Source of the DNA: the human T2T-CHM13v2.0 reference genome, Homo sapiens | Assembly (NCBI RefSeq): GCF_009914755.1 | Contig: NC_060941.1 | DNA length: 64,000 nucleotides | Direction: 5' to 3' (one strand) | Shown here: positions 842 through 64,000 of the stretch, one piece after another | Position numbering within the stretch: position 1 is the stretch's first letter | Layout: each line of letters begins with the position of its first letter | Made by a program: the position numbers and the translations under genes | Notes under the pieces: generated by a model | What the model saw: the letters and a program-made list of their open reading frames with translations, nothing else | What the model was told of the DNA's origin: nothing | Database searches by the model: none

Positions 842-1274
842 TACATTCTCCGGGAGGGAGACAGAGAAAAGGAAAGAACTGAATTCAAATATATAAGAAA
901 AATTGGAGAAAAGTACTCTGTGATATAGAGGGTGAGGTAGTAAAGTGACTAGAAGAACATATGAGATTGTATGACAGTGATGGTCTCTGAAATTATGACA
1001 CTTAATCAGAGATTTAAATAAAAATAATTGGCTTCATGAAGATCAGCAGTGGTAGTATTTCAGGTGGATTCAAAGACTGAAAGTTGGCAGAAATAAGTTT
1101 GGCTTCTTTAAGAAAACTAAAAGTGGCCAATAGGTGTGATAATAGTAGATACAGGGGAGAGGCAGGCTAAAAATGAGGCCGGACAATGTAAGTAGCGGCC
1201 CAAGAGAAAGGTGGTGGTGGCTTCAACTAGGGCAGTGCTGGTGAAAATAGAACATCATAAGATTTAGATGAAGC

Positions 1275-1660
<386 letters not shown>

Positions 1661-3164: not shown

Positions 3165-3725
3165 TTAAAAAATGTTTATTTGTATAAATTTAAAAAGTAC
3201 AAATGCAGTTTTTTAAATACAGATATATTGCTTAGTGGTGAAGTCTAGGCTTTTAGTGTAACCCTCACCTTAATGGGTATATTATACTCCTTAAGGAATT
3301 TCCCATCCCTCATCCCCCTCACTCTCCCACCCTTCCAAGTCTCCAATGTCTATTATTCCACTATGTCCATGTGTATACATTTATAGCTTATAGCTCTCAC
3401 TTATAAGTATTTGTGATATTTGACTTTCTGTTTCTGAGTTATTTCACTTAAGCTAATGGTCTTCAGTTCCATCCATGTTGCTGCAAAAGATGTGATTTCA
3501 TTCTTTTTTATGGCTGAGTAGTATTCCACGGTATGGATATACCCCATTTTCTTTACGCACTTACCCATTGATAGAGACTTATGTTGATTCCATATCTTTG
3601 CTATTGTGAACAGTACTGCTATAAACATATGAATTCAGTTATCTTTCTGATGTAATTATTTCTTTTTTAGAGTAGATACCCAATACTGTGACTGCAGATT
3701 GAATGGTAGTCTATTTTTAGTTACC
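3165..3725 (-). mobile_element. L1MA-type LINE-1 3' end (ORF2 C-terminus remnant and 3' UTR)
   Basis: ORF 3401-3628 reads FIAVLFTIAKIWNQ...EYYSAIKKNEI.SFAATWMEL, the L1 ORF2p C-terminus. Confidence 0.9.
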
Positions 3726-4469
3726 AAGAAAACTCCTCTAAATTGTGAGCCAACTTGTGGAAGAAAAAAGATAGCCCTCCCTGACTGAAAAAAGACTTAA
3801 AGAGCCTCTGAGGACATTCGTGCCATTTGTGAGTCAAAGTACAGTCACTGAAGAAACTTGGGGAACAGAATATAAGACTTGCAGCAGGAAAAAAACTGAT
3901 TCAGGGAACTCATGCAGGAAACATGTGGTCTTCGCTGGGACAAAGCCCAGAGAAAGCCCAATGCCCGGTAGAAAAGTAGGCAAAATGACCTATTAAGTCA
4001 ATTTGCCATGGTGGGACATAAAGCCACATGCAAACCATAGGAAAAGGCCAGGGCAGATTTATTTTTTATGTATATCATAGCTCAACATAGTTTTGTCCTT
4101 CATTCTGATTCTGATCCACACAGCATTTGCTGAGCATGCACTATATGACAGGTGCTGTCACATACTTATAAGTGGTAGAGCCAGTGAATTATGACCATAT
4201 CTGGGCTTTCCACACAAGCCAAACTGGAGTTTCATTATATAAATAACCAAGACCAAACTAAAATTTGGAACTTGAATTGTCTGGAGAGTTGTATCTGAGG
4301 AGATTTGAGGACCATCCCTATCTCAGCTACTACTTCAATGAGGATGATTCTCAAATTTATATTCCCCACCTGGATTTTTTATTCCAGTTCCATGCAAGCT
4401 TTTCAGCAGCCTACTAATTAGAATACTGCTATTTTCCAGGACCTCATGATCACAACTGTCTTCTGCCCC

Positions 4470-12875: not shown

Positions 12876-13729
12876 TTCATATATGTATATATGTGTAGAT
12901 ACATATGTACACATACATATATCAGGGAAGTAAAGAGGACATAGTTGGGGAAACCAAGCAACATAGAGATGGGCACATACTAGCTGCTTAATATATTAAT
13001 TTATTGAATTAATGAATTAACCAACTCATAGAATTATCTCCCAATCTTCATCTAAGCAAATCTTTCACTCCAGCCAACTAGAAAAGTGCCCCCTATAAAT
13101 GCAATGTGTTTTCTTGCTCACATTCATAGACCTCATCTGAGGTTTTTCCCTCTTTGTACAAATGCTATTTACATCCTGACCGAAACCATCACCAACCCAT
13201 GGAAAATCTCCTTTGTTGCTGTGAATTGAAACAACTCTTCCTCTCTAAATGTTTATGACAATGTTCACCTATTTAGCAATTTATCCTTTGCTTCCCTGTG
13301 GGGTTTTTAATCATCACTTAACTTTTGTGTTGTTATTTCACTCCTCTCTTGTTGTCATTGTCTCTTCAACTAAGAGAACCATACTTTTGTGTCTTCATTG
13401 TGCCCCTCTAAGAGAAGATGCTAGTATAAATAAATGTTTAATTTATTAATATTTTGAATGCAAGAGACCAGTGCTCCTAAGTATTGCTAGCTTTTATGCA
13501 GTAGAATGGAAAAGAGGGCAATAACTAAATTTTCTGAGAGTCTCCTCTGTACTAGATGTTTTGCAAGTATATCTTGTTTCATTCTCACCAGAAATTTATT
13601 AGGTAGTTTTTACCTTATTTATACATAAAGACACTGAAGTTCAAAGTTACTTGATCAGGGTCATTCATCTGGTAAGTTGGAAAGCTGGGGCCTGAAAGCA
13701 AGATTCAGCTCTAAAGATTACATCCTTAA

Positions 13730-14084
13730 GATGAGTTCATGTCCTTTGCAGGGACATGGATGAAGCTGGAAACCATCATTCTCAGCAAACTATCACAAGA
13801 TCAGAAAACCAAACACCGCATGTTCTCACTCATAAGTGGGAGCTGAACAATGAGAACACATGGACACAGGGAGCGGAACATCACACACTGGAGCCTGCGG
13901 GGTGTGGGGGCTGGGGGAGGAATAACATTAGGAGAAATACCTAATGTAGGTGACGAGTTGATGGGTGAAAACCACCATGGCACATGTATACCTATGTAAG
14001 AAAACTGCACATTCTGCACATGTAACCCATAACTTAAAGTATAATTTAAAAAAAACCTAAATAAATGTATAAAGCAAAAAAAAA
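13730..14084 (+). mobile_element. L1PA7/8-like 3' end
   Basis: Canonical L1PA ORF2 end and 3' UTR with A-tail; 17-bp TSD aaagatta(ca/tg)tccttaa at 13713-13729 and 14085-14101. Confidence 0.9.
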
Positions 14085-46714: not shown

Positions 46715-47290
46715 ATTTGTATATTTATTTGCAATTATACAATAAGATGTGAACACATGCTCACAATAATTCAGACAGTAATTAAAAGGCTCAAGTTCCT
46801 TTTACCTATTCTGTTCCCTCATCATAACCTTACCCCAACCATGAAGTGATTACTGTTATCAATTTGGTATGTATCCTTCTAGAATTTTTAGTATGTAATC
46901 ACAAACATATATATGGATTTTACATAAATAGCACGCTATACATATTGTCCAGCAAGTTTGTTTTTGACATATGTCTTGGAGACTTTACCATGTGGGGACA
47001 TCGAGTTCTAGCATATTCTTTTTCACTGTGGCATAGTATTGTATTACATGGATCCACTACAGTTTACCTACCCCATTTCTGGTGGGTGGGCTTTTGGGCT
47101 GTTTCTGATGTACTATGCTGTATATGGTTCCCAGCACACATGCATGCATATTTCTCCAGGGTATACACTGAGAGGTATAATTGTGGCTTCAGAAGTATTC
47201 ACTTCCTTTCCTCCATTTAAATTTAAATAGACACTGCAGACTTGCCCTCCAATAATGAAGTAACAATGTACACTTCCACCAACAGAATCC
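46715..47290 (-). mobile_element. L1ME-type fragment
   Basis: tactgttatcaatttggtatgtatccttc; gcatagtattgtattacatgg; tttctccagggtatacac.gagaggtataattg; ttgccctccaa. Confidence 0.7.
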
Positions 47291-49554
47291 ACTCCAGTTA
47301 AGCATCTCTGTGGTATTCTAGGGAGGTAGTCAGTTGGGCAGAAGAGGCTGGTGTCCTCTAGCTCTCTGAGGGTTATGAACATACATTCAGTAGGTAAATC
47401 CCAAGAGGTGAAAGGATCTCAGCTGGCAATGGTTCTCCCCTTTTCATTTCACTAGAGTGAACTCCTTTTTAATGCTTCTTTGTCCTTTCTTATTTCGGTT
47501 TTTAGCTGAAATAAGATGTGACATGCTCACAATAATTCAGACAGTACTTAAAAGGCTAGATCTTTGATAACAGATATCCTGTGAACCTGTGTTTCACCTG
47601 ACCATTAAAATCGTTCTTTGGAATTAATAACAACTACCGTTGATTAACTGACACACACTTTGGATGTACTATCTCAATACATCCTCAAAATACATCCTCA
47701 GAATAACTCTGTAAGATAGGTATTGCTTTGATCTACATTTTTCAAATGAGTACACAAAGAGGTATGTAAATCTACCCAGGGACATAAGGGCTATTAAGAC
47801 ATAGAGCAGAAATCTGAATCTGGGCTGGGTGGTTTCCAACCCCAGTTCTGGGGCTATGAGCCACTGGGCTCTACTGCAAGCAATCATTCCCTTCTCTGCT
47901 CTCCTAAGCCTGTTTATCTCTGCCTCCCTTGCATCAGGCATTGCTTTCTACCTTTTATTAGTTATTTGTCAATAGGATTTATCTTATCTTTTAGCCTGTT
48001 AGCTTCTCAACTGAAAAATGCATGGATGAGTCACCTCTGTCTCCAAGACCATTTCAAAAAATACAGTACCTCAAACACAGTAGGAACTTGATAAATATAT
48101 CTTGAAAGAAAGATGTACTTACCACTCAGCTTCACAAAACTTCTCCCTTACAATCCAAGATCACTGACTGTCCCCCTGCTGAATCTGACAATGGCCTTCA
48201 TGGGTCGTCCACTGTGGCATCTTTTCAGGAGGTAATTCTCATATCAGAACTTCTAGATACGAATGGCTTCTAATCCTATCTCTACCACTGAGAACCATTT
48301 TCTTTATGGCCCATTCTCACACGACACCACTGATGCAGGATCTGATGTCTTCATGTGAGTTAATTTATCTGATACGTTAATTAGAATTAATTTGCCTTAA
48401 TTGATCAATTGGAGACATTCATATCTTGCAGCCCTTCACTTCTAAACCCTGTTTTCTAACTTTCCCTCCCAGACCTCTTCTTCTAGCATTTAACCCCAGA
48501 TTTTAGTCTTTTGGGCATGCCTTTATTCTGCTTTCCAGCTCAGCTGCTGAGGGAAATCCTGATTTGACTGCCTGGCTTCCATGGCAGCTAAACATCTGGA
48601 TACTATCTTTTGAATCACCTTCCAATTCATGCTCTAATTCCCATGGGTGAATCACACCCTACCCATGACTAAGGCAAATCCTCACTATTTCAGTTAGACC
48701 CAGCATCTTGAGTTCCTGTTTATTCGAATGGTAACTGAAATAACATATAACAAACACTGTAACAAGGACTATCAGTGTTCTATTGAAAGAAGTGGCCCTC
48801 GTGTAAAGAAGACTAAGCCACCACTTTCTCCTCTACCTCTCTGTAGCCTACTCATCCTGAAAGCCATAGTCCATGTTGCCTTCCTCAACTGTCCCCAACA
48901 GTTATTAGGATACTTATTAACTTCTGATATTCATCAACCAAACTAGCATTTAATTATATATGGTCTTATATTGTTTTATGTGATCTATCATCTCCCTTAT
49001 TAAGCAAAAAGCTTCTTGTAGCAGGGAACAAACATATTGCCATACTCTCCTTTATCATCATTGTCCTCTTCACCATTGCAAATATTTTCTTTAACTTATT
49101 GAGTGCAGAATGCTTTACATGAATTAATTCATTTAATCTTCACAAGAACACTATGAGGTAGATGCCATTGCTATCCTCGTTATGGATATGAGAAAACTGA
49201 GCACAGAGAGGATAAGTAACTTGCTTAAGATCACATGGATATACTATGTGGTGAATCAGGTATTTGAATCTTGGCAGCCTGGTTCTAGAATCTAAGAGCT
49301 TAACCAGTGAGACTTTCTTTCATGTGATCCTTTTATAGTACCAAAAACAGCTGAGAACGTACATAGTACTAAATAGTAATAAATAAGTACAAAGTAAGTA
49401 CTCATTAGATGCCTAATTTACAGTTTGATGCCCATGGGCTTTTCAGTGTCCTTGAGTCCTCTCTATCATCATCTCAAGACTCAACTGCATATAGTTCAAC
49501 TACTTAACATAGGCCTGGACACAGGGAAGGGGTCAGACTGGAACAAGATTTGTT

Positions 49555-50828
49555 GACAATTCTGCACAGAAAAGGAAACAGTCAACAGAATAAAGACAAC
49601 ACCAGTAGAATGGAAGAAAATATATGCAAACCAGATATTTGATAAGGGGTTAATATCCAAAATATACAAGAAACTCAATAGTAATAAAACAACTCACTTT
49701 AAAAATAGCCAAAGGACCTGAATAGACGTTTTTCAAAAGAAAGCATATAAAGAGCTAACAGGTATAAGAAAAAATGCTCAACATCACTAATCATTAGTGA
49801 AATGAAATAAAAATTTAAACCACAATGAGATATCACCTTATTCATGTTAGAATGTCTCTTAATAAAAAGATGAAAGATAACAAGTGTTGGTGAGGATATG
49901 GAGAAAAGGGATCCCTTGTGCACTGTTGGTGAGAATGCAAATTAATACAGCCATTAAGAAAAAAAGTATGGTGGTTCCTCAAAAAATTTAAAATAGTACT
50001 AACATATGACCCAGCAATCCCACTTCTAGGTGTATATCCAGAGTATATGGGATCAGAGGTTGAAGAGATATCTACATTCTCATGTTTACTGCAGCACTGT
50101 TCACAGTAGCTAAAACATGGAATCCATCTAAATGTCCATCAATTGATGAATGAATAAAGAAATGTGGTATACACACAAATAGAATACTATCCAGCCTTAA
50201 AATAGAAGGAAACTCTGTCATTTGCAACACCATGTATAAACCTAGAGAACACTACATTAATTGAAATAAGTCAGAAAAAGACAAATATCGCATTATCTCA
50301 CTTATATGTGGAACGTAATAAAGTTGAACTCATAGAAGCAGAGAATAGAATGGTGGTTACTAGCGACTAGATGGTGCAGGGTTGGGGAGATGGCGGTCAA
50401 AGGATATACATGTCTTTTTTTCTTCTTTCTTTCTTTTTTTTTGAGATGGGGTCTTGCCCTGTTGCCCAGGCTGGAGTTCAGTGGCACTATCATAGTTCAC
50501 TAAAGCCTCAGACTCTTGGGCTCAAGTGATCCTTCCACCTCAGCCTCCTGAGTAGCTGTGACAACAGGCACACACCACCAAAGGATATAAATTTCAGTTA
50601 GACAGCAGGAATCAGTTCAAGAGATCTATTGTACACCATGGTGACTATAGTGAATAACTATGTATTGTATACTCGAAAATTGCTAAAGGAGTAGATTCTA
50701 AGTGTTTTTTAAAAATAAGAATGTGAGGTAATGCATATGTATAATTAGCTTGATTTATCTATCCCACAATGTATACATAAATCAAAACACAATATTACAT
50801 ATGATAAATATATACTATATTTATTTTT
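49555..50828 (+). mobile_element. L1MA (about MA6-8) ORF2 end and 3' UTR; terminal bases resume at 51917-51950
   Basis: ttctgcacagaaaaggaaacagtcaacaga...gacccagcaatcccacttctagg...ttcaagagatctattgtacaccatggtgactatagt. Confidence 0.9.
50413..50578 (-). mobile_element. FRAM / 5'-truncated AluJ right arm inside L1MA
   Basis: atcatagttcact...gggctcaagtgatcc; TSD caaaggatata at 50398-50408 and 50579-50589. Confidence 0.85.
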
Positions 50829-51916
50829 ATTTTATTTTTTTTTAGACTATAAACATAAATATTATTGTTTGGCATTACCCCAAAGTTCCCCTTTAAAAAA
50901 ACAAATAAATGGAAATAATATATATTTGAGTGTTCTGTCTCTACTTTCTTTGAACCAAGGAGGCCTCATACTTTATGAGTTTGTTCCACCCTCTTCTAAT
51001 ATATCTGTCAACAGAGCATGGCAACAGTGTTACAAAATTTAATGTTTTAAAATTTTGAACAAATTAAAAACATGAAATTTATATTTCTCTTACATTTTAC
51101 TATTCTCTAATGAGGGAAAATGATTTAAATTTTGGACTAAATGCAACCAGTATATAAAATAATTCTCTTCTGAGTGATAGTGAAACAATTACTGAATTAC
51201 AACTATATGCAGAAAGTATTTTTGCCTAACATGTTTTCCATGTGACTAACATTATAGCTCATTGCAAGTGGTTTATTTGTTTTATAATTAATAAAGAAGT
51301 CCAGGTGGAGTTTAACACAAAAACAGAAGATAGAGAGCATTTAATTTTGTAGAGAGCTTTCAGTACTAAAATAGGTAGTCAGAATTTTCTGACTTTAATG
51401 GAGTCAGAAACTGGGTAACTTTCATTCTTTTAACTTAAATCAGTTTCTGGATTTAGTTTATCAAAATAGACTATATTGTATGTGTATTGGTGAACTAGAA
51501 ATAGATCAGCTCTCAAGAAAATGTGGCACATATACACCATGAAATACTATGCAGCCATAAAAAATGATGAGTTCATGTCCTTTGTAGGGATATGGATGAA
51601 ATTGGAAATCATCATTCTCAGTAAACTATAGCTAGGACAAAAAACCAAACACTGCATGTTCTCACTCATAGATGGGAATTGAACAATGAGAACACATGGA
51701 CACAGGAAGGGGAACATCACATTCTGGGGACTGTTGTGGGGTGGGGGAAAGGGGGAGGGATAGCATTAGGAGATATACCTAATGCTAAATGATGAGTTAA
51801 TGGGTACAGCACACCAGCATAGCACATGTATACATAGCACATGTATACATGTATACATAGGGCACATTATGTACATGTACCCTAAAACTTAAAGTATAAT
51901 AATAATAAAAAAAGAA
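50829..51916 (-). mobile_element. Composite insertion: poly(A) tail, ~670 bp non-repeat sequence and inverted L1PA3-like 3' end (putative twin-primed 3' transduction)
   Basis: 17-bp TSD atactat(a/t)tttattttt at 50812-50828 and 51917-51933; T-rich tail to 50843; TTTT/AA endonuclease site. Confidence 0.7.
51515..51916 (+). mobile_element. L1PA3-like 3' end
   Basis: aagaaaatgtggcacatatacacc...ggatgaaattggaaatcatcattctcagtaaacta...ggacaaaaaacc...gcattaggagatatacctaatgctaaatga...ccctaaaacttaaagtataataat. Confidence 0.9.
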
Positions 51917-54777
51917 ATACTATTTTTATTTTTAAATTAAAAAAATTAAAACAGCTTGTCCCCAAGAGCTGTGGAAGCAATGGAGAGGCAGACTCAGAGG
52001 AAGACGCTGCAAGAGAGATGGTTTGACTGGAGAGGCACTGAGCATGACAACAACAGGATATGGTCCAGATGTGGCAGACAGTAAAGCACATGGGGGGCTA
52101 AGAAAATGGACTTTGAAAGAGGACTGCCTAAACTGGAATCCCAGTGCCACAGAGTGCTACTCATGGAACTGTTGTGAGCTATGTGAGTCAATTCTTCTAA
52201 AGTACTAAGCACAGTAAAGGAGAAAGGTGTGCTGTACCTGTTAACTGCTATATTATTCTGAATAATTAGAATGAAGACCAATATCTGACTTCTGGGTTTC
52301 TGACTTATATGTGGGGCACAGCAACAGGGAATGAAGGCACAGTGAACATGCAGAATTCAGCATCTTTCCTCAGGCTCTGGCCATCTGAGCACACTTGGTT
52401 TTAGTGAAGTTAGCTTATAGGCAGTTCTAGAAACAAATTTAGGGAGGATTTGGGGCCCTAAGCCTAGAGATTCCAAGGTCCTTGTATAGGTTAACACAAT
52501 AGAAATGCATGTACCAGGTACAGAAGAGAGGGCCCTCATCAGGACTGGGGTACAAACTGGGGACTTGGTCCAGACACAGGTGACATCTCGTGGCTCAACC
52601 GAGGCACAGGACCACAGTGAGACAACAGCAAGGGTACCTTGGAGCAGAGCCTAATATATGGGGTGGAATTACAGGGCTTAAATCAGTGCTACCTCTTCTC
52701 AGGAGTAGCGCAGAGGACCATGGGCAGGCTGAGTATGCAGATAAGGATTATATGACTCCAAAGGTAAGGAAAAGCTGGGAGTTGGGCTGGACCTAATCCA
52801 TGTTGCATGGAGCTGCTTCACTGCCCTGTCTGGGCCTCACCTTCTTGGTGAGCAAGCAATCTGGTACCATGCCCTTTGGTGAAATCAGGCATGGAACAGG
52901 TGACTGACCTTGGGGAACGAAAGCCAAGCTGCCATTCATCACAGCCCATGGTGCAAACCTCTAAGGTAAGCCTTGGAGCCTCCAGCGCCCCAGCGGTGGG
53001 GCATCCGTCCTCTGGGCAGGGAGCTTCAATTCACACAGCAGGAGAGCCATAACATAGCAGGAGACACACAGAAGGCCTTTAAATGTCTATTTTTTAAAGT
53101 GGTTAGCAAAGCAGGAGAGAAACTGTCAGAGATCCGCAATGCAGAGTTTAATCTGGAAAGTCAGCGAAGAGGTGGAAGGAAACAGAAAACAGGAGACTGG
53201 AAGAAGAGGCTTCAGGATTTGGGGAGAGCAAAGCAAAAAGTGTTAACAAGAAAAAAAAAACAGTTGCATATCAGAAACTGCTCAATTCTCATGTCAACAT
53301 TTACAGAACACTGTTTTCCATTTTTCCGACTGCTCTATGCATTTGACAAATTTTTACTTGTTCTTAATTCTAGCTCAAAGTTCACCTCCTTTAGACAAAG
53401 CCATACCCTCTTCTGGCCTCTGTTTTAATAGATACAATGTTTGTAATAGCATATTTCAAAATATTGTGTAATGAATTGTGACTCTGGATATTATAGCCAC
53501 TCATCATTTTCTTGAGGATATTTATCCTTATATCCCCAGGACTTAGTAAAGTTCCTGGCACATATTAGCTAATGGTCAATTAATGGTCACTTAATGAATA
53601 GAAGATTAATGAATGAAGAAGGAACCAAGGAGGGAAGATGCTTTATGACTGTACAGGGTGCATGCGAGGGGAGGCAGGAAGTGAGATCTATAAAGGTGTC
53701 TTAGCATATCATGCTGGTGATGTGAGCCAAGCTAAGCATTGCAGCTTTCATCCACTGGCAAGGTAGCATAATAAAAGGCTGTAAAGCAGAATGTTTCAAA
53801 GAGCTGTTCCCCCAGTGCCATCTTCACTCTATACGTTATTAATCTCATTTCTTCCCTACTTCGAACTAATGTGCTCACATTCAAAGATTTGGCATATATA
53901 GACCCATTTAAAACAAAATGTTTCAAGTTCTCCAGAAAATAATCCTAAACCTCAACTTCTTCAAGAAATAATCCTAAAATAACCTCCCATCAGCTTCTTT
54001 GTTACTCAGTATTTTATTCTTAACTTATTGTAACCTTGTACCTATTTATTTGTCCCTTGGGAGATGATGGTTTTCTTTAAGAGTTATGAGTGTACTTTCT
54101 AGTGCCAAACTTGGGTTCAAAGCCTAGCTCATCCACCCACAAGCTTTCTGTCTTTAACTAAATTATTTAATATCACTGAGTCTCAGTCTGTTCACCTCTA
54201 TAGGCATGATAAATAATGCCTATCCACATGATTTCGGTAAGAATTGAAGGCTATTGTAAAGTTTAAACATGAACTAAACAATCAATACCAGCAGCTAGTA
54301 ATAGTGGTTCTGCCAATATTAGTTAAAAATAATAATAATAGTAAGTTTGTTCTTATGCCCTGGCATACTCTCTGGGAGAAAGAATCATCTTCTCTTTCTT
54401 AGGTTATTATTTCTTTTTCTCTCCCCTCCTACAACTGCACATCTGCCTCTTCCCTTCACAGTATTTTGCAATTCTCTGTGTGACTCAAAGCAGAGCTCAG
54501 GTTATGCATGACAGCTGCCTCTTCCACTGTGCCCTGGCACCATGGATGTCACTGCCATCCTCCACCCCATGCATGAGCCAGAACCCTGGGCTCCTTCTGA
54601 CTCACCATTCTCCCTCACCCCCACCATACACAGTTCATCAGGCTCTGTGAATCCACATCCTGAACGGCTCCTGATGCTGGCCATTGCTCTCCATGTGTGC
54701 CATCACCTTCAACAGGTTACCTGCATCTCCAACCCAGACTGCCACCAGAGCCTCCTGACTGCCCTCCTGAGGTCGCC

Positions 54778-61452: not shown

Positions 61453-62241
61453 CTGAGTTGTGTTATATCTAGAAGGGACTTGGTGGTTTAGGGAAGAGAA
61501 AAAAACCTAAATCAGCAGAGACTACTGGTGAGAATGTGGAAAAACCTATCATTACGGATTGGAGAGTAAAACCCAACCAATGAGCATGTTGCATTAGGAG
61601 TAGGATGGGGATACCCTAGATGAATCCTGGCCATGGTGAATTTTCCTGATGAAAGTAGAAAGGCAGCCAGTGGATGGGCAGCACCGGGGACAAGAAGAGC
61701 CGATGGGGCATTATGGGGAGATACTGCTGCTGGCTGGACTGCTCATAACAGTGTTCACAAAGAAGCCTCTGGTTGAACATGTGAGAACCTATGAGTAAGC
61801 CATGTAGGATTCAGGTGGGTCAAAATAAGGTAAAAACCACAGCATGAGCAAAAGCACAGGTAAGTGTCTGCAAGGTGCCTTCACAGAATCCTGAGTTGGA
61901 AATTGGAGCAAAGTTGGAAAGGTCAGTCTATGGCACATCATGGAAGACTTTAAAACATCACTTTCAACAGTGTGAACTCTTCATTTTTAAGAGTCAGTGA
62001 CAGGTACTGAAGGTTTCTGAGCTTGTAGTACCATATCCCCTACAAAGCAGCTAACTCAAATAGTCTTCCTCCTTTACAAAGAGACTATGGTTGGCTGCAT
62101 CTCACATGTTATGAATTTGATGCTAATACCAGATCACATTTATTAAGCCATTATTATGTGCCTGATAATACTGTACTAAATGCTTTACTTTCATATGTCA
62201 TTTAATAATGCTTATAAAAAATCACTGATGGGGTTATTTTT

Positions 62242-62508
62242 TTTGAAAATACTTGGAAAATGGTTTAATGATGTTTTACAACAGAAATGAACTGTACAGT
62301 TATGGTAAGTTTAATATATATATAAAATTACAGCAGACAAATGCATCTACACAAAATCTACCATTTCATTCTGATTCACTGTCACCTACACAATCTTTCC
62401 CAAGCCTACAACCCCTGCAGGCAGCCCTAGGAGGGGGAATCATCTAAAGGGCACATTGAGAGAGACAGCACCGCTCATATTCCTCACAACCTCCTCAGGC
62501 CTCAGGAG
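62242..62508 (-). pseudogene. 5'-truncated retrocopy of an unidentified transcript 3' end (or orphan L1 transduction) inside a MIR
   Basis: Perfect 17-bp TSD ctgatggggttattttt at 62225-62241 and 62509-62525; short T tail; minus-strand ATTAAA (62264-62269) about 19 nt from the tail; MIR sequence continues on both sides. Confidence 0.75.
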
Positions 62509-64000
62509 CTGATGGGGTTATTTTTATCTCCATTTTACAGATTAGAAAACTGAGATCCATAAGAAGTTAACTTACCCAAAGCCAACCAGCTTGTAAGAGG
62601 CAGAGTGTGGGTTTAAATGCAGCTCTTAATCATTCTCAACTCAAGCTATATGGCATCTCAGTGGATTTAAACATATTTCTGCATTTTAATAGTTAAATAA
62701 AATACTTTTAACATCATTTCTAAATTGTTTCTCCAGTGTTCCCTCTCCTCAAAGATCTCCAATACTATAATTACATTTGTCATCCTTTTATCTTCCTATG
62801 AATTATTTTTTAAGATCACCAGATTAATAATAAAATATTTGTAAATTTAAATTTTGTTCAAATTTAATACAATCCCAGTGCACTGCTTTAGTATTAAATC
62901 TTGATTTCCATCAATGACATATCTATCCATCTATGTATATAATTATTTTCACATTATTTGGGCTATATTTTAGGAGGATGTTGCTTTAATGAACACAAAC
63001 CATATATTTATCTGACATGAATTTTTGGCCACACACAATAATGTGATATAATTTTAAATAAGTAAAAAATGCTTATATAAGTAAAAGCTTAGAAAGAAAC
63101 AAACCAGAATATTAATAATAGTTGTATTATGGTTATGTGATTATAAGTGATCTGTTTTTTCTCTTTTTTCCCAATTATTTTAAATTGGATTATGTTAGTG
63201 TTAAATTTTTAAAATATAATCATGTGAAAAATGTTCTTTTTAAAAAAAGAGAAGTTATAAAATAATCCAGTGGGAACTAATCAGCAACTAATGAAATAAT
63301 GCCCAAATGCAAAAAGTGATGATGTTCCATGAAGGTTCCATGTACTTAAAGCTACTGGATCTCATTAAATCACTGGGACCTAAAATCAGGCTGGCTGGGG
63401 TGGGTCTACACTCAGCTTCTCTAAGTACAATCAATTTAAGAGAAACAGGAGTAGGGGTTTAGTGGATTAGTCACAGCAGGCCATTAATCTCTGCATTCTC
63501 AGTTGTAATCCAGCCTCTACCAACGAGCTTGGAGGAAAAAAATCCCACAAAAAAACCAAACACTGGGAAAAGCTCTAAAGCAGGCTCCCTAGAGACAGAC
63601 ATACTCAGGTCACAGTTTGCTTGTCTTTACTTAACATCAATACAGTATTTATCATCTGTCCTATTTCTTGTTGGTTTCCCTTTTATGCCTTTTGCTGAAA
63701 TGCTCAGATCAGATATATTTGAAAAGGAACCATACTGCAATCTCAGGAATAGCTCAGCATTTAATTATCATTTAAAGAAATCCTTCTCTCAAGTGAATAT
63801 GAAACAAATCAAAGCTATGTTTTCATGTTGAGAATAGGTTGAAAAAAACATGGGTAAGGTTACCACAAACACAAATTAGTGCTTGGGGAAGCAGGTAAGT
63901 CTGAACAATGAAAAGGGAATAGAGTAGCCAAATTTCAGTAAAAATGAGTGACAGTTTCAAAAATTGCAGGGTAAATAGTGTATCTTTTATCATAAATGGA

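What the first reader, a model, noticed from the sequence alone, without database searches (positions are those of the whole stretch)
62225..62525. Orphan 267-bp retroposed transcript end inside a MIR
Seen: a perfect 17-bp TSD (ctgatggggttattttt) interrupts a MIR at a TTTT/AT site. The insert read on the minus strand ends ...ctgtacagttcatttctgttgtaaaacatcATTAAAccattttccaagtattttc-An, looks like a GU/U-rich 3' UTR end, and contains no Alu, L1 or SVA sequence I can recognise. Known: L1 machinery produces 5'-truncated retrocopies and orphan transductions with these hallmarks. Inference: a very short processed-pseudogene fragment of a germline-expressed mRNA, too short and non-coding for most pseudogene catalogues. 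I could not identify the parent gene.
Basis: partly seen in the sequence, partly recalled or inferred. Interest (0 to 1): 0.7.

Follow-up and report, generated by a model that had tools for sequence, protein, structure and literature searches.

The report
Stray copy of POU2F1 mRNA tail
A 267-base insert in the first intron of the human CA10 gene is a 95%-identical copy of DNA 11.5 kb behind the POU2F1 (Oct-1) stop codon, likely the last bases of that gene's mRNA pasted in by LINE-1 machinery in a primate ancestor and likely functionless: an ordinary processed-pseudogene fragment.

Summary
An exact 17-bp target-site duplication (62225-62241 / 62509-62525) flanks a 267-bp insert at a TTTT/AT site inside one old ~230-bp interspersed repeat (MIR by recall). 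The insert has one other match in the genome: chr1:166,778,412-166,778,679 (+), 95% identical (11 substitutions, 2 indels). That stretch lies 11.5 kb behind the POU2F1 stop codon. Similarity stops at a CA 25 nt after ATTAAA, where the parent runs into a GU/U-rich tract and the copy into an A-run. So it is a severely 5'-truncated L1-mediated retrocopy of the distal end of the POU2F1 3' UTR, not an orphan. No full-length or young L1 was found in 50 kb upstream of the parent site, so transduction is unlikely. Divergence excludes a human-specific origin; the likely age is about 10-35 My. It lies sense to CA10 intron 1 and carries two ATTAAA, but lacks the parent's GU-rich downstream element and shows neutral-looking decay. 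I found no paper on this copy; RetroSeeker's human tables could not be read. Ordinary kind; low interest.

The parts
62225..62241 (.). Target-site duplication, copy at the 3' (tail) end of the insert; its 5 T overlap the A-run
62509..62525 (.). Target-site duplication, copy at the 5' junction; followed by A, giving the TTTT/AT endonuclease-type site
   Evidence: motif class from PMC4859970 passages
62244..62508 (-). Copy of the last ~268 nt before the inferred distal poly(A) site of POU2F1 (G000:C1:166778412-166778679 +), 95% identical
62237..62244 (-). 8-A run: poly(A) remnant (2 A non-templated, 1 parent-aligned, 5 shared with the TSD)
   Evidence: the parent has only 3 A in the 20 nt from the junction
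62264..62269 (-). ATTAAA poly(A) signal copied from the parent, 25 nt before the junction
62310..62315 (-). Second ATTAAA (71 nt before the junction in the parent)
62119..62241 (-). Left part of the old interspersed repeat that received the insert (MIR family and its strand by recall)
   Evidence: profile positions 18 to about 130 in the empty-site alignment
62509..62626 (-). Right part of the same repeat
   Evidence: 21 scattered genomic matches to this flank; profile positions 126-243, 74.6 bits

Best explanation
The insert is a 95%-identical copy of the 268 bases on chr1 that end 11.5 kb behind the POU2F1 stop codon, and was likely made by LINE-1 proteins reverse-transcribing the polyadenylated POU2F1 mRNA in a primate germ line or early embryo, leaving a likely functionless fragment. 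Steps: (1) shown: the copy ends at a CA 25 nt after ATTAAA, where the parent continues into a GU/U-rich tract; inferred: this is the cleavage site of the long POU2F1 3' UTR. (2) Shown: the target reads TTTT/AT inside an old repeat; inferred: L1 ORF2p nicked there and the T-rich end primed on the poly(A) tail. (3) Shown: only 265 aligned nt are present, joined to the TSD with no microhomology or inversion; inferred: reverse transcription or integration ended early (5' truncation). (4) Shown: 17-bp TSD; inferred: a staggered second-strand cut. (5) Shown: 11 substitutions, 8 of them G/C in the parent and A/T in the copy; inferred: neutral decay over about 10-35 My.
For: A single paralogue, E 9.8e-114, 2 of 2 candidates (reciprocal). 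POU-domain exons at C1:166741059 and 166747647, and two exons matching PF19536 POU2F1_C, the last ending in a stop near 166767153, all on the same strand. Junction 11,526 nt behind the stop. Only 2.8% of positions in 14,346 nt of parent DNA lie 16-36 nt after an A(A/T)TAAA start, and 0.14% also end in CA. The parent's next 40 nt hold 20 T and 12 GT/TG. The parent is not A-rich at the junction (3 A in 20 nt), so the A-run was added on RNA. TSD length and YYYY/RR-type sites, including TTTT/AT in Table 1, are described in PMC4859970 (passages). L1 pieces in the 50 kb upstream are 65-68% identical to a young L1 for the 3 sense fragments measured, with no credible 5' UTR/ORF1 match; the nearest ends 18.7 kb upstream.
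Against: No exon junction lies in the copy, so the classic intron-loss proof is unavailable. Only 2 A are unambiguously non-templated. No transcript or poly(A)-site database could be queried: that this site is POU2F1's annotated 3' end is inferred from motifs and agrees with recalled hg38 spacing to CD247, but was not looked up. No primate genomes were available, so the empty site and the age are not shown directly. The G/C-to-A/T skew is borderline (8 vs 2, p = 0.055). The genome search skips common words, so further copies are not excluded.
Confidence: 0.91

Rival explanations
1. Orphan 3' transduction: an L1 or SVA upstream of the chr1 site read through to the same poly(A) signal, and the copy lost the element by 5' truncation.
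For: It gives the same hallmarks (TSD, A-run, endonuclease site). Sense L1 remnants lie in POU2F1 introns at about 166,735,991-166,737,559, 166,757,362-166,757,947 and 166,758,684-166,759,998.
Against: Those remnants are 65-68% identical to a young L1, far older than a 4% copy. They hold only ORF2/3' parts, and the nearest is 18.7 kb and two coding exons away. The only repeat reported in L004 (10 kb of the UTR) is an Alu-sized element at 3510-3800; SVA was not probed separately.
Confidence: 0.03
2. Same L1 mechanism, but the template was a separate short RNA from the 3' UTR (an internally initiated or cleaved UTR RNA), so the 5' junction marks an RNA end rather than a truncation.
For: The 5' junction is clean, with no microhomology, and only UTR sequence is present.
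Against: 5' truncation is the usual outcome of TPRT (PMC5470649 passages). No second copy shares this 5' end.
Confidence: 0.04
3. DNA-level templated insertion (repair-mediated capture of chr1 DNA) with a fortuitous duplication.
For: The non-templated tail is only 2 A, and there is no intron to lose.
Against: The end coincides with a poly(A)-site configuration (2.8% by chance; 0.14% with CA); the 17-bp TSD sits at a TTTT/AT site; the parent's downstream DNA is absent.
Confidence: 0.02

Closest known systems
L1-mediated processed pseudogenes (mRNA retrocopies), 5'-truncated class (PMC4859970, PMC5470649; passages and one section read)
   Same: TSD of 4-20 bp, YYYY/RR-type site, 5' truncation, poly(A) remnant, 3' end at the parent's inferred poly(A) site, primate age.
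   Different: It holds no coding sequence and no exon junction: about 2% of an 11.5-kb UTR. Pipelines that need two adjacent parental exons, such as Navarro and Galante's (PMC4558860, passage), cannot list it.
L1 orphan 3' transductions
   Same: Unique-sequence insert with TSD and A tail and no element sequence.
   Different: No source element was found upstream; the donor is the 3' end of a host gene's last exon.
RetroSeeker 'novel retrotransposons' (PMC11727581; abstract, Methods and passages read)
   Same: That method finds inserts by alignment gap + TSD of 7 or more + poly(A) of 5 or more, which this insert could meet.
   Different: Its two POU2F1 passages concern a retrotransposon that made an exon of POU2F1, not a copy of POU2F1. 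Two supplementary tables, probably including the human list, were too large to read, so a listing there is not excluded.

Membership tests
L1-mediated processed pseudogene | Parent locus is a Pol II gene and the copy matches its exonic sequence in sense | tested here: met
   sense match 11.5 kb behind the POU2F1 stop; that the UTR is continuous to this point is inferred
L1-mediated processed pseudogene | Similarity ends at the parent's cleavage/poly(A) site | tested here: met
   ATTAAA at -25, CA, GU/U-rich tract downstream; motif-based, no 3'-seq data
L1-mediated processed pseudogene | Non-templated 3' poly(A) | tested here: inconclusive
   8-A run absent from the parent, but 5 A belong to the TSD and 1 to the parent
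L1-mediated processed pseudogene | Target-site duplication of 4-20 bp | tested here: met
   17 of 17 nt
L1-mediated processed pseudogene | L1 endonuclease site YYYY/RR-like | tested here: met
   TTTT/AT; this variant is listed in PMC4859970 Table 1
L1-mediated processed pseudogene | Loss of introns | not testable with these tools
   The copy spans no exon junction
L1-mediated processed pseudogene | Empty orthologous site in outgroup species | not testable with these tools
   No primate genomes held; the in-silico empty site is collinear with a repeat profile
L1/SVA orphan 3' transduction | Full-length, age-matched source element upstream of the donor sequence | tested here: not met
   only old L1 remnants in 50 kb; SVA not probed separately
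Known transposon or structured-RNA family | Many dispersed copies or an Rfam match | tested here: not met
   2 loci in the genome; 3 Rfam hits at E 0.4-1.3, all far below gathering scores
MIR (host element) | Match to the MIR consensus | tested here: inconclusive
   A ~256-position dispersed repeat is shown; the family name is recalled, no Dfam model was available

The most novel reading that the evidence does not exclude
The retrocopy transplanted POU2F1's distal poly(A) module (two ATTAAA, six UGUA) in sense into intron 1 of the neuronal gene CA10, 15 kb behind exon 1, and, helped by a U-run in the flanking repeat, acts as a primate-specific intronic poly(A) site that attenuates CA10.
Probability: 0.05. 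Interest if true: 0.55.

Novelty: new member of a known kind. Interest (0 to 1): 0.2.

Why it matters
Little on its own. It is a molecular fossil suggesting that the most distal poly(A) site of POU2F1, giving an 11.5-kb 3' UTR, was already used in the germ line or early embryo of a primate ancestor. It also illustrates a class of UTR-only retrocopies that exon-junction pipelines miss, and it could serve as a presence/absence marker in primate phylogeny. It would matter more only if its poly(A) signal proved active in CA10 intron 1.

Tried and rejected
Rfam scan of 61800-63000: 3 hits, all chance-level. Stop-to-stop ORFs over the region: 18, the longest 66 aa, none suggestive; not searched further. 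Search for more POU2F1-UTR copies: the last 2.4 kb found only the parent and this copy. The 10-kb query was swamped by an Alu-sized repeat (39 of 7999 candidates scored, self-hit not listed), so it says nothing about other copies; about 0.85 kb of the UTR next to the stop was not queried. The first repeat profile missed the left flank; the iterated profile found it. Internal A-rich priming rejected: 3 A in the 20 nt from the parent junction. Human-specific origin rejected: 3.2 differences expected at 1.2% against 11 seen, P = 0.0005 (the 1.2% is recalled). Literature: POU2F1 + processed pseudogene, 8 papers listed; POU2F1 + retrocopy, 2; POU2F1 + long 3' UTR + polyadenylation, 2; CA10 + intronic polyadenylation, 2 with 1 listed; retrocopy + intronic polyadenylation + host gene + premature, 0; POU2F1 + CA10 + pseudogene, 0. 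No listing concerned this insert; of these papers only RetroSeeker was opened. PMC2584115 passages gave nothing specific.

Full report
Observation. The window shows an exact 17-nt direct repeat at 62225-62241 and 62509-62525 around 267 nt. Exact repeats of 17 nt or more at 50-1000 nt spacing form only 4 runs in the window: two in a (TG)n tract, one in a longer duplication at 46755, and this one. On the minus strand the insert ends with ATTAAA, 19 further bases, and an 8-A run that overlaps the TSD. The reconstructed target reads TTTT/AT. PMC4859970 (passages) gives TSDs of 4-20 bp and the L1 endonuclease site as TTTT/AA, more broadly YYYY/RR, and lists TTTT/AT among real insertions.

Host repeat. 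The right flank matches 21 scattered places in the genome (23 matches less self and chr1). A profile from 8 of these found further copies in the window but not the left flank. After three iterations with the locus masked (28 sequences, 256 positions), the in-silico empty site aligned collinearly over positions 18-242 at 95.6 bits; the right flank alone gave 73.6 bits and 100 left-flank shuffles at most 81.9. So the insert splits one old element of about 230 bp. Calling it MIR rests on my recall of that family, not on a library match.

Parent. A whole-genome search with the insert gave 2 of 2 candidates: itself and G000:C1:166778412-166778679 (+), 95%, E 9.8e-114. The reverse search with 2.4 kb of the chr1 locus gave only these two. 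Upstream on the same strand lie POU-domain exons at 166741059 and 166747647 and two reading frames matching Pfam POU2F1_C (E 3e-31 and 3e-34), the last ending in a stop near 166767153. The junction is 11,526 nt behind that stop. On the other side, a minus-strand frame ends at 166783035 in a peptide I recall as the CD247 C-terminus, with an AATAAA at 166782014, 3.3 kb from the junction. I recall a spacing of about 3.3 kb between the annotated ends of POU2F1 and CD247; this was not looked up.

Junctions. The alignment covers 265 columns with 11 substitutions and gaps of 1 and 2 nt. At the 3' end similarity stops at a CA 25 nt after the start of ATTAAA. The parent continues with 20 T and 12 GT/TG in 40 nt, the look of a downstream cleavage element, and has only 3 A in the 20 nt from the junction. 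Only 2.8% of positions in 14,346 nt of parent DNA lie in such a position behind a hexamer, and 0.14% also end in CA. At the 5' end the copy meets the TSD with no microhomology and no inversion. The direction is chr1 to chr17, since only the chr17 copy has the TSD and A-run and interrupts another element.

Mechanism. Most likely L1 ORF2p engaged the poly(A) tail of the long POU2F1 mRNA, nicked the T-rich site, primed reverse transcription there, and integration ended after about 265 nt, leaving a 17-bp TSD. The hallmarks are shown; the enzymology is inferred from established L1 biology (PMC5470649 passages; PMC4859970 passages). For transduction, I scanned 60 kb of the chr1 locus (50 kb upstream of the junction) with a young L1 from this genome. 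Seven fragments were hit in these chr1 loci. The three sense fragments upstream are 65-68% identical to the probe. The probe's first 2.3 kb gave only two weak hits there, to probe bases 5-157, that is flank or the extreme 5' end (E 0.001 and 0.005). The nearest sense fragment ends 18.7 kb upstream. A source element since deleted cannot be excluded.

Age and selection. Distance is 4.2% (95% interval 2.1-7.4%). Eight changes are G/C in the parent and A/T in the copy, against 2 the other way (p = 0.055), hinting that most arose in the copy. One TG/CA pair at 62304-62303 suggests an ancestral CpG that mutated in both. With recalled rates of 0.12-0.22% per My the age is 9-35 My. A human-chimpanzee-level distance is excluded (P = 0.0005); a simian-ancestor age is allowed only if the parent hardly changed (P = 0.21). 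A perfect TSD is unremarkable at this age (P 0.23-0.5).

Function. The hub annotation puts the window in a CA10 intron on the minus strand. The CA10 start codon and exon-1 donor lie near window position 77,500, so the insert is in sense about 15 kb into intron 1. It retains both ATTAAA and 6 of the parent's 7 UGUA, but its new downstream 40 nt have 14 T and only 2 GT/TG, and 27 other A(A/T)TAAA occur in the 16,492 nt upstream on that strand. Nothing points to selection. Activity as an intronic poly(A) site is possible but unlikely (5%).

Literature. Six targeted searches listed no paper on this insert; the library lacks most subscription journals and no genome-browser track could be read. The Navarro and Galante pipeline needs two adjacent parental exons (PMC4558860 passage), so it would miss this copy. 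RetroSeeker (PMC11727581: abstract, Methods, passages) could find it; three supplements were searched without a relevant hit (the large one shown was the fly table), and two were too large to read.

Verdict. A real, neatly preserved, UTR-only 5'-truncated retrocopy of POU2F1: a new member of a well-known kind, probably inert. Interest 0.2.

Noticed in passing
window 46740-46800 and 47509-47565: A direct repeat of about 55 bp (with a 17-nt exact core; 82% over 105 aligned nt) flanks about 710 bp of sequence that looks to me like an old L1 remnant (recall; not hit by the young L1 probe). Too long for a normal TSD; perhaps a small tandem duplication or a repair-type insertion.
   Followed up: partly
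G000:C1:166767153-166782014 (L003-L005): POU2F1's inferred 11.5-kb 3' UTR holds 18 A(A/T)TAAA hexamers and an Alu-sized repeat, and ends about 3.3 kb from the convergent gene on the minus strand (CD247 by recall).
   Followed up: partly
window 51512-51917, 13728-14064, 49560-50396: L1 3'-end fragments; the first two are 90.5% and 86% identical to a young L1.
   Followed up: no
window 1259-1589: Exact 16-nt direct repeat 315 nt apart around the masked stretch 1270-1585, consistent with an Alu and its TSD.
   Followed up: no
G000:C1:166786100-166786850 (L005): GC-rich tandem repeat giving long low-complexity reading frames on both strands, inside the neighbouring gene.
   Followed up: no
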